64,000 nt of DNA from the human T2T-CHM13v2.0 reference genome, Homo sapiens. Position 1 is the first letter of the stretch. Each line of letters opens with the position of its first letter. A program made the translations under genes and the position numbers. Below the pieces are notes generated by a model. It searched no databases. It worked only from the letters and a program-made list of their open reading frames with translations, and had not been told where the DNA came from. Where the stretch lies: NCBI RefSeq assembly GCF_009914755.1, contig NC_060947.1; one strand, given 5' to 3'. This document shows positions 9,609 to 43,549 of the stretch, piece after piece.

Positions 9609-12600
9609 AAAGATGGCTGAATAGGAACAGCTCTGGTCTACAGCTACCAGCATGAGCGACGCAGAAGCCGGGTGATTTCTGCATTTCCATCTGAGGTACC
9701 GGGTTCATCTCACTAGGGAGTGCCAGACAGTGGGCGCAGGTCAGTGGGTGAACTCACCGTGCATGAGCCGAAGCAGGGCGAGGCATTGCCTCACTTGGGA
9801 AGGGCAAGGGGTCAGGGAGTTCCCCTTCCTAGTCAAAGAAAGGGGTGACAGACGGCACCTGGAAAATTGGGTCACTCCCACCCGAATACTGCGCTTTTCC
9901 GATGGGCTTAAAAAACGGTGCACAGGGAGATTATATCCCGCACATGGCTCGGAGGGTCCTATGCCCACGGAGTCTTGCTGATTGCTAGCACAGCAGTCTG
10001 AGATCAAACTGCAAGGCAGCAGCGAGGCTGGGGGAGGGGCGCCTGCCATTGCCCAGGCTTGCTTAGGTAAACAAAGCAGCCTGGAAGCTCGAACTGGGTG
10101 GAGCCCACCACAGCTCAAGGAGGCCTCCCTGCCTCTGTAGGCTCCACCTCTGGGGGCAGGGCACAAACAAAAAGACAGCAGTAACCTCTGCAGACTTAAA
10201 TGTCCCTGTCTGACAGCTTTGAAGAGAGCAGTGGTTCTCCCAGCACGCAGCTGGAGATCTGAGAATGGGCAGACTGCCTCCTCAAGTGGGTCCCTGACCC
10301 CTGATCCCCAAGCAGCCTAACTGGGAGACACCCGCCAGCAGGGGCAGACTGACACCTCACACGGCCGGGTACTCCAACAGACCTGCAGCTGAGAGTCCTG
10401 TCTGTTAGAAAGAAAACTAACAAACAGAAAGGAAATCCACACCAAAAACCCATCTGTACATCACCATCATCAAAGACCAAAAGTAGATAAAACCACACAG
10501 ATGGGGAAAAAACAGAGCAGAAAAACTGGAAACTCTAAAAAGCAGAGCGCCTCTCCTCCTCCAAAGGAACGCAGTTCCTCACCAGCAACAGAACAAAGCT
10601 GGACGGAGAATGATTTTGACGAGCTGAGAGAAGAAGGCTTCAGAAGATCAAATTACTCCGAGCTACGGGAGGACATTCAAACCAAAGGTAAAGAAGTTGA
10701 AAACTTTGAAAAAAATTAAGAAGAATGTATAACTAGAATAACCAATACAGAGAAATGCTTAAAGGAGCTGATGGAGCTGAAAACCAAGGCTGGACAACTA
10801 CGTGAAGAATGCAGAAGCCCCAGGAGCCGATGCGATCAACTGGAAGAAAGGGTATCAGCAATGGAAGATGAAATGAATGAAATGAAGCGAGAAGGGAAGT
10901 TTAGAGAAAAAAGAATAAAAAGAAACGAGCAAAGCCTCCAAGAAATATGAGACTATGTGAAAAGACCAAATCTACGTCTGATTGGTGTACCTGAAAGTGA
11001 CGGGGAGAATGGAACCAAGTTGGAAAACACTCTGCAGGATATTCTCCATGAGAACTTCCCCAATCTCGCAAGGCAGGCCAACATTCAGATTCAGGAAATA
11101 CAGAGAATGCCACAGAGATACTCCACGAGAAGAGTAACACCAAGACACATAATTGTCAGATTCACCAAAGTTGAAATGAAGGAAAAAATGTGAAGGGCAG
11201 CCAGAGAGAAAGGTCGGGTTACCCTCAAAGGGAAGCCCATCAGACTAACAGCGGATCTCTCAGCAGAAACTCTACAAGCCAGAAGAGAGTGGGGGCCAAT
11301 ATTCAACATTCTTAAAGAAAAGAATTTTAAACCCAGAATTTCATATCCAGCCAAACAAACTTCATAAGAGACGGAGAAATAAAATCCTTTACAGACAAGC
11401 AAATGCTGAGAGATTTTGTCACCACCAGGCCTGCCCTAAAAGAGCTCCTGAAGGAAGCACTAAACATGGAAAGGAACAACCAATACCAGCTGCTGCAAAA
11501 TCATGCCAAAATGTAAAGACCATCGAGACTAGGAAGAAACTGCATCAACTAATGAGCAAAATAACCAGCTAACATCATAAAGACAGGATCAAATTCACAC
11601 ATAACAATATTAACTTTAAATGTAAGTGGACTAAATGCTCCAATTAAAAGGCACAGACTGGCAAATTGGATAAAGAGGCAAGACCCATCAGTGTGCTGTA
11701 TTCAGGAAACCCATCTCACGTGCAGAGACACACATAGGCTCAAAATAAAAGGATGGAGGAAGATCTACCAAGCAAATGGAAAACAAAAAAAGGCAGGGGT
11801 TGCAATCCTAGTCTCTGATAAAACAGACTTTAAACCAACAAAGATCAAAAGAGACAAAGAAGGCCATTACTCAATGGTAAAGGGATCGATTCAACAAGAA
11901 GAGCTAACTATCCTAAATGTATATGCACCCAATACAGGAGCACCCAGATTCATAAAGCAAGTCCTGAGTGACCTACAAAAAGGCTTAGACTCCCACACAT
12001 TAATAATGGGAGACTTTAACACCCCACTGTCAACATTAGACAGATCAATGAGACAGAAAGTCAACAAGGATACCCAGGAATTGAACTCAGCTCTGTACCA
12101 AGCAGACCTAAGAGACATCTACAGAACACTCTACCCCAAATCAACAGAATATACATTTTTTTCAGCACCACACCACACCTATTCCAAAATTGACCACATA
12201 CTTGGAAGTAAAGCTGTCCTCAGCAAATGTAAAAGAACAGAAATTATAACAAACTATCTCTCAGACCACATTGCAATCAAACTGGAACTCAGGATTAAGA
12301 AACTCACTCAAAACCACTCAACTACATGGAAACTGAACAACCTGCTCCTGAATGACTACTGGGTACATAACGAAATGAAGGCAGAAATAAAGATGTTCTT
12401 TGAAACCAACGAGAACAAAGACACAACATACCAGAATCTCTGGGACACATTCAAAGCAGTGTGTAGAGGGAAATTTATAGCACTAAATGCCCACAAGAGA
12501 AAGCAGGAAAGATCCAAAACTGACACCTTAACATCACAATTAAAAGAACTAGGAAAGCAAGAGCAAACACATTCAAAAGCTAGCAGAAGGCAAGAAATAA

Positions 12601-40812: not shown

Positions 40813-43549
40813 ATTGATGTTAGTCAGGGATATTGGTCTAAAATTCTCTTTTTTTTGTTGTATCTCTGCCAGGCTTTGGTATCACGATGATGCTGGCCTC
40901 ATAAAATGAGTTAGGGAGGATTCCCTCTTGTTCTATTGATTGGAATAGTTTCAGAAGGAATGGTACCAGCTCCTCCCTGTACCTCTGGTAGAATTCAGCT
41001 GTGAATCCATCTGGCCCTGTACTTTTTTTGGTTGGTAGGCTATTAATTATTGCCTCAATGTCAGAGCCTATTATTGGTCTATTCCGGGATTCAACTTCTT
41101 CCTGGTTTAGTCTTGGGAGGGTGTATGTGTCCAGGAATTTATCCATTTCTTCTAGATTTTCTAGTTTATTTGCATAGATGTGTTTATAGTATTCTCTGAT
41201 GGTAGTCTGTATTTCTGTGGGATCGGTGGTGATATATCCTTTATCATTTTTTTGCATCTATTTGATTCTTCTCTCTTTTCTTCTGTATTAGTCTTGCTAG
41301 CAGTCTATCAATTTTGTTGATCTTTTCAAAAAACCAGCTCCTGGATTCATTGATTTTTTGAAGGGTTTTTTGTGTCTCTATTTCCTTCAGTTCTGCTCTG
41401 ATCTTAGTTATTTCTTGCCTTCTGCTAGCTTTTGAATGTGTTTGCTCTTGCTTCTCTAGTTCTCTTAATTGTGATGTTAGGGTGTCAATTTTGGATCTTT
41501 CCTGCTTTCGCTTGTGGGCATTTAGTGCTATAAATTTCCCTCTACACACTGCTTTGAATGTGTCCCAGAGATTCTGGTATGTTGTGTCTTTGTTCTCGTT
41601 GGTTTCAAAGAACATCTTTATTTCTGCCTTCATTTCGTTATGTACCCAGTAGTCATTCAGGAGCAGGTTGTTCAGTTTCCATGTAGTTGATCAGTTTTGA
41701 GTGAGTTTCTTAATCCTGAGTTCTAGTTTGATTGCACTGTGGTCTGAGAGACAGTTTGTTATAAATTCTGTTCTTTTACATTTGCTGAGGAGTGCTTTAC
41801 TTCCAACTATGTGGTCAGTTTTGGAATAGGTGTGGTGTGGTGTGGTGCTGAAAAGAATGTATATTCTGTGGATTTGGGGTGGAGAGTTCTGTAGATGTCT
41901 ATTAGGTCCACTTGGTGCAGAGCTGAGTTCAATTCCTGGAGATCCTTGTTAACTTTCTGTCTCATTGATCTGTCTAATGTTGACAGTGGAGTGTTAAAGT
42001 CTCCCATTATTATTGTGTGGGTGTCTAAGTCTCTTTGTAGGTCTCTAAGGACTTGCTCTATGAATCTGGGTGCTCCTGTATTGGGTGCATATATAGTTAG
42101 GATAGTTAGCTCTTCTTGTTGAATTGATCCCTTTACCATTGTGTAATGGCCTTCTTTGTCTCTTTTGATCTTTGTTGGTTTAAAGTCTGTTTTATCAGAG
42201 ACTAGGATTGCAACCCCTTCCTTTTTTTGTTTTCCATTTGCTTGGTAGAACTTCCTCCATCCCTTTATTTTGAGCCTTTGTGTGTCACTGATGGGTCTTG
42301 ACTCTTTATCCAATTTTCCAGTCTGTGTCTTTTAATTGCAACATTTAGCCCATTTACATTTAATGTTAATATTGTTATGTGTGAATTTGATCCTGTCATT
42401 ATGACGTTAGCTGGTTATTCTGCTCGTTAGTTGATGCAGTTTCTTCCCAGCCTCGATGGTCTCTACAGTTTGGCATGTTTTTGCAGTGACTAGTACCTTT
42501 CCATGTTGAGTGCTTCCTTCAGGAGCTCTTTTAGGGCAGGCCTGGTGGTGACAAAATCTCTCGGCATTTGCCTGTCTGTAAAGGATTTTATTTCTCCTTC
42601 ACTTATGAAGCTTAGTTTGGCTGATATGAAATTCTGGGTTGAAAATTCTTTTCTTTAAGAATGTTGAATATCGGCCCCCACTCTCTTCTGGCTTGTAGAG
42701 TTTCTGCCAAGAGATCAGCTGGTAGTCTGATGGGCTTCCCTTTGTGGGTAACCCGACCTTTCTCTCTGGCTGCCCTTAACATTTTTTCCTTCATTTCAAC
42801 TTTGGTGAATCTGACAATTATGTGTCTTGGAGTTGCTCTTCTCGAGGAGTATCTTCGTGGCATTCTCTGTATTTTCTGAATTTGAATGTTGGCCTGCCTT
42901 GCTAGATTGGGGAAGTTCTCCTGGAGAATATCCTGCAGAGTGTTTTCCAACTTGGTTCCATGCTCCCCATCACTTTGAGGTACACCAATCAGACATATAT
43001 TTGTTCTTTTCACATAGTCCCATATTTCTTGGAGGCTTTGTTCATTTCTTTTTATTCTTTTTTCTCTAAACTTCTCTTCTCACTTCATTTCATTCATTTG
43101 ATCTTCCATCACTTATACCCTTTCTTCAAGTTGATCGAATTGGCTACTGAGGCTTGTGCCTTTGTCACGTAGTTCTTGTGCTGTGGTTTTCAGCTCTGTC
43201 AGGTCCTTTAAGGACTTCTCTGCATTTGTTATTCTAGTTATCCATTTGTCTAATCTTTTTTCAATGTTTTTAACTTCTTTGCCATGGGTTCAAACTTCCT
43301 CCTTTAGCCCGGAGTAGTTTGATCATCTGAAGCCTTCTTCTCTAAACTCTTCAAAGTCATTCTCTGTCCAGCTTTGTTCTGTTGCTGGTGAGGAGCTGTG
43401 TTCCTTTGGAGGAGGAGAGGCACTCTGATTTTTAGATTTTTCAGTTTTTCTGCTGTTTTTCCCCCATCTTTGTGGTTTTATCTACCTTTGGTCTTTGATG
43501 ATGGTGACATACAGATGGGGTTTTGGTGTGGATGTCCTTTCTTTTTGTT
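40813..43549 (-). mobile_element. Inverted 5' portion (end of 5'UTR, ORF1, EN, linker) of a twin-primed L1PA5-like insertion (copy C)
   Basis: Minus-strand ORF1/ORF2 fragments (42612..43013, 41807..42313, 41244..41633, 40838..41257) joined directly to a + strand 3' part. Confidence 0.9.

What the first reader, a model, noticed from the sequence alone, without database searches (positions are those of the whole stretch)
9609..43549. Three independently inserted L1s of different subfamilies share private variants in a pairwise patchwork (candidate gene-conversion network)
Seen: copies A (9609-15629, PA3-type ends), B (24806-30878, PA4-type) and C (40813-43549, inverted, PA5-type 3' partner) each have their own TSD, so they are separate insertions. 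A and B share non-CpG changes absent from the control segment 43550-45256: gaTaac 13938/29199, aatGaat 14019/29280, ccaGatg 14417/29677, attCaact 14631/29892, gtgAg 14804/30044, cttTTtag 15317/30558, gtgAgaat 15408/30649. B and C share ctaCca 26518/42722, tgcCga 26678/42563, tCtccagg 27343/41941 and taaGag 27815/41464, all absent from A. All three share attCtcca (11044/26314/42926), whereas the copy at 37360 has attatcca. Inference: different pairs are linked in different intervals, which fits repeated non-allelic gene conversion among neighbours or from a regional pool better than descent from a master element.
Basis: partly seen in the sequence, partly recalled or inferred. Interest (0 to 1): 0.8.

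Follow-up and report, generated by a model that had tools for sequence, protein, structure and literature searches.

The report
Neighbouring L1 repeats exchange sequence patches
Separately inserted L1 retrotransposon copies in this stretch of the human X chromosome share rare base changes and one near-identical 370-base patch, which points to copying between neighbours, and some of these changes are concentrated in a few million bases around the window.

Summary
All listed motifs sit at the stated coordinates. None is a subfamily marker. The A-B variants are absent from 24 dispersed A-like copies where readable. The B-C variants are absent from 10 of 10 dispersed C-like copies.

Four were counted genome-wide. 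ccaGatg has 46 exact hits against 11,081 for the usual form, and 31 of the 46 lie at chrX 71.9-77.3 Mb. attCtcc has 19 hits, 11 within 1.1 Mb around the window. gaTaac has 69, including A, B and a third L1 47 kb upstream of A. taaGag has 41; only B and C are local.

The chrX carriers belong to different L1 subfamilies and are not duplicates.

A 12555-12924 matches C 41086-41453 at 99.7%, against about 90-95% in the flanks. A switches to C-type markers there and carries four changes seen only in A and C. B has a similar tract with an L1 65 kb away.

Best explanation: non-allelic gene conversion among neighbouring L1s. How single sites spread over megabases without homogenising their flanks is unexplained. 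Subfamily names, dating and read-level checks were not possible.

The parts
9609..15629 (+). L1 copy A, full length. It is 95-96% identical to dispersed copies on other chromosomes and 92.2% to B. It carries all the shared rare variants and is the recipient of the C-type patch.
24806..30878 (+). L1 copy B, full length, of a different and older type. Its 5' region is only 83-87% identical to A. It shares rare variants with A, C, E and L007.
40813..43551 (-). L1 segment C, the inverted 5' part (A coordinates 809-3588) of one inversion-type insertion.
43550..45256 (+). It carries the common state at all 7 A-B sites.
12555..12924 (+). Conversion tract in A (A positions 2947-3316). It is 99.7% identical to C (1 substitution and 2 gap columns). 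A carries the C-type state at 3 of 3 family-discriminating sites here, against 1 of 10 in the left flank and 1 of 9 in the right. Four states are seen only in A and C among 48 copies.
41086..41453 (-). Partner tract in C, the inferred donor, 28 kb from the A tract and in inverted orientation.
27912..28436 (+). Tract in B (A positions 3033-3557), 99.0% identical to L007, an L1 outside the window at chrX 73,747,809-73,752,230 (-). Six states are seen only in B and L007.
13938..15408 (+). A-B shared point variants in A at 13938, 14019, 14417, 14631, 14804, 15317 and 15408. The matching positions in B are 29199, 29280, 29677, 29892, 30044, 30558 and 30649.
26314..27815 (+). B-C shared point variants in B at 26518, 26678 (a CpG site), 27343 and 27815. 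The matching positions in C are 42722, 42563, 41941 and 41464. The variant shared by A, B and C is at 26314, 11044 and 42926.
45257..48574 (+). Older L1 (together with 39577-40813) into which C+Cp inserted. It was used to polarise the changes.

Best explanation
A, B and C+Cp are separate L1 insertions of different subfamilies. After insertion they exchanged sequence with each other and with other L1s nearby by non-allelic (ectopic) gene conversion. In this process a break or gap in one copy is repaired using a neighbouring, partly diverged copy as template.

Shown:
- One recent tract of about 370 bases was copied from C, or a copy of it, into A. The two are 28 kb apart and in inverted orientation.
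- A second tract of about 525 bases links B to an L1 65 kb away.
- Every local pair tested shares an excess of rare point variants.
- At least two of these variants are concentrated in L1s of several subfamilies around this locus on Xq13.

Inferred:
- The isolated shared sites are remnants of older or very short tracts. They lie in stretches that are otherwise conserved between subfamilies, so a tract under about 100 bases would move only the one visible difference.
- The most widespread variants (T>G, A>C, A>C) may have been favoured by GC-biased repair.
- The very high local L1 density supplies many templates.
For: (1) Not subfamily markers. A-like dispersed copies carry the common state in 24/24 (4330, 4411, 4809), 23/23 (5023), 9/10 (5196), 7/8 (5709) and 8/8 (5800). 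For the other sites the figures are 21/21 (1436), 23/23 (1640, 1799, 2464) and 24/24 (2936). The C-query copies are 10/10 common at 1436, 1640, 1799, 2464 and 2936. The B-query copies are 5/5 non-variant at the A-B sites.

(2) Genome-wide rarity and local clustering. 4809G has 46 hits against 11,081 for the T form, with 22 within +-1 Mb of the window centre (uniform expectation 0.03). 1436C has 19 hits, 11 within +-1 Mb. 4330T has 69 hits, of which A, B and E lie within 67 kb. 2936G has 41 hits, of which B and C lie 14 kb apart. These counts include the query copies themselves.

(3) The carriers are independent and diverse. They show different family haplotypes and different 5' truncation points. 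The best carrier pair is 98.3% identical. Mean identity is 94.13% within the Xq13 carriers and 94.14% between Xq13 and autosomal carriers.

(4) Reticulation. All four combinations of 1436 and 4809 occur. C/G is seen in A, B, L038, L039, L045 and L052; C/T in L007 and C+Cp; A/G in E; A/T in the dispersed copies.

(5) Classical tract. A-C identity is 99.5% in windows 3001-3300, while A's mean identity to its own family falls to 93.4-94.4%. In a genome search with the A tract, C is the best hit (99%) and the next is 97%. Several of the next-best hits are also among C's own best hits. The marker switch and 4 pair-private states are.

(6) Rare-variant sharing is 1.2-2.6 per kb in local pairs against a mean of 0.08 per kb in 882 dispersed pairs.

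(7) Published context. Conversion between neighbouring Alus, decaying within about 10 kb and with hotspots on sex chromosomes, is reviewed in PMC6598467 (parts 1-2 of the text read) and PMC8230782 (passages read).
Against: (a) Between the A-B shared sites, A and B keep family-specific differences, for example at 5726-5735 between 5709 and 5800. A-B identity never exceeds 97% in any 200-base window. Seven separate tiny or old tracts would be needed.

(b) The Xq13 carriers of 4809G are no more alike in the flanking 415 bases than random L1s. In the core region the G form reaches about 22 per Mb, six times the genome mean density of the T form. By my own rough branching-process reasoning (an inference, not a tool result), neutral conversion frequent enough to do this should have scrambled family markers far more than is seen in A, which is 95-96% identical to its family.

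(c) A and E show no general excess of AT-to-GC changes: their ratios are 1.02 and 1.15, against 0.94 for the pooled dispersed copies. The GC-bias idea therefore rests on a handful of sites.

(d) My permutation test for tracts is miscalibrated. 22 of 70 control pairs gave P<0.01, so only the raw scores are usable: A-C 216.6, B-L007 244.2, and 130.7 the highest among the six control pairs printed (sorted by P value).

(e) The regional count of T-form copies was not measured, because the listing is cut at 100 rows.

(f) The dispersed panels are the top hits of a heuristic search. They are dominated by A-like copies, so B's own family is poorly sampled. The '5 B-query copies' are in fact closer to A than to B.
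Confidence: 0.7

Rival explanations
1. The shared variants are ordinary diagnostic positions of a dispersed L1 sub-lineage, inherited from master elements. The patchwork is just subfamily phylogeny.
For: At the 7 A-B sites, Cp and the older L1 O2 carry the other state (6 of 7 for O2). On in-window evidence alone this looks like younger copies sharing derived changes. Three-way comparison without outside copies always yields pairwise sharing.
Against: The variants are absent from all 24 A-like, 10 C-query and 5 B-query dispersed copies where readable, except 5196A in 1 of 10 A-like copies. Genome-wide there are only 19-69 exact hits, against 11,081 for the common form of one site. The hits are concentrated near the window rather than dispersed. 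The carriers span several subfamilies.
Confidence: 0.03
2. The sharing reflects independent recurrent mutation at hypermutable L1 positions, possibly with a regional mutational bias towards A>C/T>G changes. No sequence transfer is involved.
For: Some sites are clearly recurrent. 1799 is a CpG site. 5196A also occurs in 1 of 10 A-like copies, in L027, L043 and L052. 2936G (41 hits) and 4330T (69 hits) are mostly scattered singletons. 9 of the 18 shared variants tabulated are A>C/T>G, a normally rare class. The flanks of carriers are not homogenised.
Against: Recurrence at a fixed L1 position should follow L1 copy number. Yet 31 of 46 (4809G) and 11 of 19 (1436C) hits lie in 0.2% or less of the genome. 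That is an enrichment of hundreds of fold, while known regional differences in mutation spectrum are a few fold (recalled, not tested). The A-C and B-L007 tracts carry 4 and 6 pair-private states in a row. There is no common sequence context. My filter (absent from all dispersed copies) itself selects against transitions.
Confidence: 0.1
3. A long-lived local L1 source lineage resided in Xq13 and re-inserted preferentially nearby. The local copies then inherited the variants at insertion, with recombination between L1 RNAs or sources explaining the mixed backgrounds.
For: A and B both carry the full set of variants. Regional carriers carry subsets. The variants are regional over several Mb, a range larger than that reported for Alu conversion (PMC8230782, passages read).
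Against: The carriers have the family-diagnostic haplotypes of several different genome-wide subfamilies. A side lineage would have had to acquire all of these in parallel. The combinations of 1436, 4809 and 5023 are reticulate, not nested. L1 is not known to insert locally (recalled). This model cannot explain A switching family type only within 2947-3316.
Confidence: 0.08
4. The shared bases are an assembly or polishing artefact, with sequence from one L1 copy written into another.
For: Only one assembly was examined and no reads were available.
Against: The copies differ by 5-8% overall, so long accurate reads should place uniquely (inference). An artefact would not be confined to one L1 position in 31 copies across 5 Mb while sparing their flanks. 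The A-C tract has sharp ends and 1 substitution plus 2 gap differences, as expected of a real, slightly aged event.
Confidence: 0.04

Closest known systems
Non-allelic gene conversion between neighbouring Alu elements (Aleshin and Zhi 2010, as cited in PMC6598467 and PMC8230782)
   Same: Independently inserted interspersed repeats share non-diagnostic mutations with their neighbours more than with distant copies. The result is mosaic subfamily patterns. Hotspots were reported on sex chromosomes.
   Different: Here the repeats are 6-kb L1s. Partners lie 14-65 kb apart for the tracts. Single variants are concentrated over 1-5 Mb, far beyond the roughly 10 kb range quoted for Alu. The spread is site-specific, without homogenisation of the flanks.
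Interlocus gene conversion in segmental duplications and multigene families (for example PMC10172114, search listing and abstract only)
   Same: Patches of near identity lie within otherwise diverged paralogues. A donor and an acceptor can be told apart. A GC bias is reported for conversion in general (recalled).
   Different: The partners here are not duplicates of one locus. They are separate retrotransposon insertions, 92-93% identical overall, which is below the identity usually considered efficient for conversion.
[quoted passage not shown] 1991, seen only as a reference in PMC5640379; Myers 2002 and Vincent 2003, recalled)
   Same: Pre-existing L1 copies partly overwritten by sequence of another L1.
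   Different: Those reports concern single loci. They do not describe a network of neighbours or a regional allele shared across subfamilies.
Spread of a motif among ISX helitrons on the Drosophila miranda neo-X by conversion (Ellison and Bachtrog 2015, as described in PMC6598467)
   Same: A small variant spreads among dispersed transposon copies on an X chromosome by conversion rather than by transposition.
   Different: In that case selection for dosage-compensation binding is documented. No function or selection is shown here.

Membership tests
Non-allelic gene conversion between dispersed repeats | The partners are independent insertions, not duplicates of one locus | tested here: met
   The flanks, 5' ends, orientation and candidate target-site duplications all differ. 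Overall identity is 92-93%. A and B have different 5' regions, 83-87% identical.
Non-allelic gene conversion between dispersed repeats | A bounded tract of much higher identity than the flanks | tested here: met
   A-C is 99.7% over 370 bases, against 95.1% in the left flank and 90.4% in the right. B-L007 is 99.0% over 525 bases. C is the best genome-wide hit for the A tract, and the next hit is 97%.
Non-allelic gene conversion between dispersed repeats | The recipient switches subfamily markers inside the tract and carries the donor's private mutations | tested here: met
   A carries the C-type state at 3 of 3 sites in the tract, against 1 of 10 and 1 of 9 in the flanks. Four states are seen only in A and C among 48 copies.
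Non-allelic gene conversion between dispersed repeats | The pre-conversion state is visible at the orthologous locus in an outgroup or another haplotype | not testable with these tools
   No other primate or human assembly was available.
Non-allelic gene conversion between dispersed repeats | For the isolated shared sites: co-conversion of neighbouring differences | tested here: inconclusive
   Around 4809 the nearest informative columns are 55 bases upstream and 49 downstream, so short tracts would be invisible. Between 5709 and 5800, A and B keep their family differences.
L1 subfamily diagnostic positions (descent from a master element) | The variant is present in most dispersed members of the subfamily | tested here: not met
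   The variant is present in none of the dispersed copies where readable, except 5196A in 1 of 10 A-like copies and in L027. The G form is 0.41% genome-wide.
Segmental duplication of an L1-bearing block | Carriers are more alike than random copies and share truncation points or flanks | tested here: not met
   The best pair is 98.3% and is between chrX and chr4. The within-region mean equals the between-region mean, 94.13% against 94.14%. Truncation points differ. Flanks beyond 921 bases were not fetched.
L1 insertion with 5' inversion (twin-priming type) for C+Cp | An inverted 5' segment is joined to a direct 3' segment inside one pair of target-site duplications | tested here: met
   The junction is at 43550/43551. 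The L1 coordinates are 809-3588 inverted and 4304-6021 direct. There are similar 11-base flanks at 40812 and 45257. The internal gap of about 715 bases is larger than I recall as typical.
GC-biased gene conversion | AT-to-GC variants spread preferentially | tested here: inconclusive
   The three regionally widespread variants are T>G, A>C and A>C. However, A and E show no general excess of AT-to-GC changes. The filter used also favours transversions.

The most novel reading that the evidence does not exclude
L1 copies within an L1-dense chromosomal domain evolve partly in concert at single sites over megabases, whatever their subfamily. The domains include the region around the X-inactivation centre on Xq13 and, judging from the 5023C clusters, several autosomal gene deserts.

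One possible mechanism is frequent but mostly abortive pairing between neighbouring L1s, followed by short-patch, GC-favouring mismatch repair that copies one base at a time. Another is repair templated by RNA or cDNA of a locally expressed L1.

If true, this would be a regional homogenisation process distinct from ordinary tract conversion. It would also leave a physical record of which L1s contact each other in the germline nucleus.
Probability: 0.3. Interest if true: 0.85.

Novelty: new variant of a known kind. Interest (0 to 1): 0.7.

Why it matters
Conversion between interspersed repeats has been documented mostly for Alu elements and over about 10 kb. My literature searches found no systematic account for human L1. 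Phrase searches for L1-L1 gene conversion returned only a citation of a 1991 mouse paper. Much of the subscription literature is not in the searched library.

If neighbouring L1s exchange patches, and some variants spread through a multi-megabase domain, four things follow.
1. L1 ages and subfamily calls based on divergence are biased in L1-dense regions.
2. 'Private' L1 variants used to map reads or trace source elements can mislead.
3. The inverted A-C and B-L007 pairs are candidate substrates for inversions inside UPRT introns.
4. The concentration around the X-inactivation centre gives a sequence-based handle on the old question of whether the L1s there interact. It can be tested genome-wide with complete assemblies.

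Tried and rejected
I then searched each motif alone and intersected the coordinates.

Smaller requests gave 10 C-query and 5 B-query copies. The 'B-query' copies turned out to be closer to A than to B, so B's own family remains unsampled.

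(3) A GENECONV-like permutation test was miscalibrated by rate differences along L1. 22 of 70 controls gave P<0.01. I dropped its P values.

(4) A test for a general AT-to-GC excess in A and E was negative.

(5) The segmental-duplication and single-clade explanations for the Xq13 carriers were rejected.

(6) The 5023C listing was cut at 100 of 282 rows, so chrX is not shown. Its Xq13 frequency is known only from the 4809G carriers: 11 of 27 readable, plus A and B.

(8) No L1 consensus library was available, so subfamily names were not assigned.

Full report
WHAT IS THERE. The window is human chrX 73,656,001-73,720,000 of a complete assembly, inside introns of UPRT (hub annotation). A blastn of copy A against the window and a pile-up on A coordinates (A coordinate = window minus 9608) give this layout:
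- A: 9609-15629, +, full length.
- B: 24806-30878, +, full length, 92.2% identical to A.
- C: 40813-43551, inverted, A coordinates 809-3588, 92.8% to A.
- Cp: 43550-45256, direct, A coordinates 4304-6021, 90.5% to A.

C and Cp abut. They are flanked by one pair of similar 11-base strings and interrupt an older L1 (39577-40813 and 45257-48574).

THE OBSERVATION. All listed motifs are at the stated coordinates. At the seven A-B sites, Cp has the other state, and the older L1 O2 shares that state at 6 of 7. At the B-C sites, A and the older L1s have the other state. One B-C site (tgcCga) is a CpG site.

Three-way comparison inside the window is inconclusive. Counting non-CpG sites where a pair shares a state and the third copy agrees with the older L1s:
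- C region: A-B 8, A-C 17, B-C 11.
- Cp region: A-B 15, A-Cp 6, B-Cp 4.

ARE THE VARIANTS SUBFAMILY MARKERS? The genome that holds the window can be searched. A search with A returned 29 other loci. 24 of them are 94.7-96.1% identical to A and lie on many chromosomes. The other five (L007, L026, L027, L029, L030) are of other types and were kept apart.

The 24 A-like copies carry the common state as follows:
- 24/24 at 4330, 4411 and 4809
- 23/23 at 5023
- 9/10 at 5196
- 7/8 at 5709
- 8/8 at 5800
- 21/21 at 1436
- 23/23 at 1640, 1799 and 2464
- 24/24 at 2936

The five other-type copies also carry the common states, with three exceptions: L007 has 1436C and 1640C, and L027 has 5196A.

Ten dispersed copies taken from the hit list of a search with C are 10/10 common at 1436, 1640, 1799, 2464 and 2936. 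Five copies from the hit list of B are 5/5 non-variant at the A-B sites. Those five proved closer to A than to B, so B's own family is poorly sampled.

GENOME-WIDE COUNTS. Exact-pattern searches gave whole counts.
- gaTaac (4330T, 25 bases): 69 hits on most chromosomes. Three lie within 67 kb: A, B and a third copy, E, at chrX 73,618,366.
- ccaGatg (4809G, 23 bases): 46 hits, against 11,081 for the T form, so G is 0.41%. 33 of the 46 are on chrX and 31 lie between 71.94 and 77.29 Mb. Four more cluster at chr11 56.6-59.3 Mb.
- attCtcc (1436C, 16 bases): 19 hits. 11 lie between chrX 73.125 and 74.243 Mb, including A, B, C and L007.
- taaGag (2936G, 22 bases): 41 scattered hits. Only B and C are local, 14 kb apart.
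- attCaac (5023C, 25 bases): 282 hits. Only the first 100 rows (chr1-chr9) are listed. They show tight autosomal clusters, for example 7 hits in chr5 68.39-68.93 Mb and 12 in chr8 77.45-79.36 Mb.

They include the query copies themselves. For 4809G, 22 hits lie within +-1 Mb of the window centre, against 0.03 expected. Even allowing a 20-fold higher local L1 density, P is about 1e-29.

WHO CARRIES THEM. E was fetched. It is a full-length A-like L1 (95.1% mean identity to the panel) on the minus strand. It has 4330T and 4809G but not the other five A-B variants.

I fetched 921 bases around each of the other 43 hits for 4809G. The 28 other Xq13 carriers show several different family haplotypes on both sides of the site and different 5' truncation points. 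The most similar carrier pair is 98.3% identical and joins chrX to chr4. Mean identity in 4800-5215 is 94.13% among the Xq13 carriers, 94.14% between Xq13 and autosomal carriers, and 94.31% between Xq13 carriers and dispersed non-carriers. The carriers are therefore neither one sub-lineage nor old duplicates.

5023C is present in 11 of the 27 readable Xq13 carriers, plus A and B. It is present in 0 of the 14 readable carriers elsewhere. Six copies carry both 1436C and 4809G (A, B, L038, L039, L045, L052; coordinates). L007 and C+Cp have 1436C with 4809T, and E has 1436A with 4809G. The combinations are reticulate, not nested.

Sliding 200-base windows show A-C identity of 99.5% at A positions 3001-3300, against 80-98% elsewhere. 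In the same windows A's mean identity to its own family falls to 93.4-94.4%.

The tract is A 2947-3316, which is window 12555-12924. It is paired with C at window 41086-41453 and has 1 substitution and 2 gap columns. A genome search with the A tract returns C at 99%. The next hit is 97%, and several of the following hits are also among C's own best hits.

At sites where the A-like and C-query panels differ, A has the C-type state at 3 of 3 inside the tract. In the left flank it is 1 of 10 and in the right flank 1 of 9. Four states (3115, 3165, 3194, 3222) occur only in A and C among 48 copies. The direction is therefore C, or a copy of C, into A. The two tracts are 28 kb apart and in inverted orientation.

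B has a comparable tract (A positions 3033-3557, window 27912-28436). It is 99.0% identical to L007, an L1 about 65 kb away on the opposite strand, with six pair-private states.

HOW MUCH SHARING. I counted non-CpG states shared by a pair and present in none of the 43 dispersed copies:
- A-B 7, A-C 7 (in 2.7 kb), A-E 7, B-C 7, B-L007 15, C-L007 5. These are 1.2-2.6 per kb.
- Lower counts: A-L007 2, B-E 3, E-L007 4, C-E 0, A-Cp 0.
- The 882 dispersed pairs average 0.08 per kb, with a 99th percentile of 0.73.
- Some local-dispersed pairs involving poorly sampled older types are also high (L007-L029 17, B-L029 13). Counts for B, C and L007 may therefore include unsampled family states. Those for A and E should not.

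WHAT DOES NOT FIT. Four observations strain the conversion reading.
- Between the A-B sites the two copies keep family-specific differences, so any A-B exchange was by very short or old tracts.
- Around 4809 there is no informative column for 55 bases upstream and 49 downstream. A tract under about 100 bases would move only that base, so conversion remains possible.
- The G form reaches about 22 per Mb in 73.13-74.00 Mb. Among the six copies with an exact motif within about 135 kb of the window, it is found in 4 (A, B, E, L047) against 2 (Cp, L007). Yet the flanks are not homogenised.
- By my own rough reasoning, neutral conversion frequent enough for this should have scrambled family markers more than is observed.

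The three widespread variants are all AT-to-GC transversions. 9 of the 18 tabulated shared variants are A>C/T>G, which hints at biased repair or a mutational process. But A and E show no general AT-to-GC excess, and my filter favours transversions. The mechanism of the megabase-scale spread is therefore unexplained.

COMPARISON WITH WHAT IS KNOWN.
- Conversion between neighbouring Alus is reviewed in PMC6598467 (parts 1-2 read) and PMC8230782 (passages read). The quoted range is about 10 kb, with hotspots on sex chromosomes.
- Conversion in segmental duplications appears in PMC10172114 (listing and abstract only).
- For L1, I found a passing mention in PMC13192797 (passages read) and a citation of Burton et al. 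1991 in PMC5640379 (reference list).
- Phrase searches for L1-L1 conversion found nothing else. The library lacks much subscription literature, and I opened no supplementary files.

VERDICT. It is certain in kind for the A-C tract and probable for the patchwork. The regional, cross-subfamily concentration of single L1 variants on Xq13 is the unexpected part and deserves a genome-wide test.

Noticed in passing
outside the window: chrX 73,616,686-73,622,689 (-), locus L031: E is a full-length A-like L1 47 kb upstream of A. It shares 4330T and 4809G with A and B. It also shares a small cluster of rare states with A at A positions 4107, 4122 and 4168. E is itself inserted into another L1 that carries 1436C (hit at 73,624,209).
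   Followed up: partly
outside the window: chr5 68.39-68.93 Mb, chr6 75.2-76.1 Mb, chr8 77.45-79.36 Mb, chr1 194.5-195.0 Mb, chr9 5.68-5.97 Mb: The 5023C motif (282 hits) forms tight clusters on autosomes, and 4809G has 4 hits at chr11 56.6-59.3 Mb. Regional clustering of rare L1 variants may therefore be general. Some of these clusters could be segmental duplicates; I did not check.
   Followed up: no
window 9569-9608 and 15630-19615: A is nested in a much older L1. The sequence after A aligns to L1 positions 1990-5886 at about 70% identity. The window contains at least nine L1 fragments of different ages, an unusually high density.
   Followed up: partly
A positions 1436, 1640, 2464, 3115, 3342, 4383, 4883, 5023 (A>C) and 4809 (T>G): Half of the locally shared rare variants are A>C on the L1 sense strand, or T>G. 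This is normally the rarest substitution class. No common sequence context was seen.
   Followed up: partly
window 43550/43551: The inversion junction of C+Cp skips about 715 bases of L1 (positions 3589-4303). This is larger than I recall for typical inversion junctions.
   Followed up: no
chrX 100,709,513-100,711,642 (+) and 100,864,569-100,866,698 (-): Two L1 hits with identical scores to C, both carrying 2936G. They look like the two arms of a large inverted duplication.
   Followed up: no
window 23785-24573 (-): An inverted 3' L1 fragment, 93% identical to A, lies just before B. It carries the common states at 5709 and 5800.
   Followed up: partly
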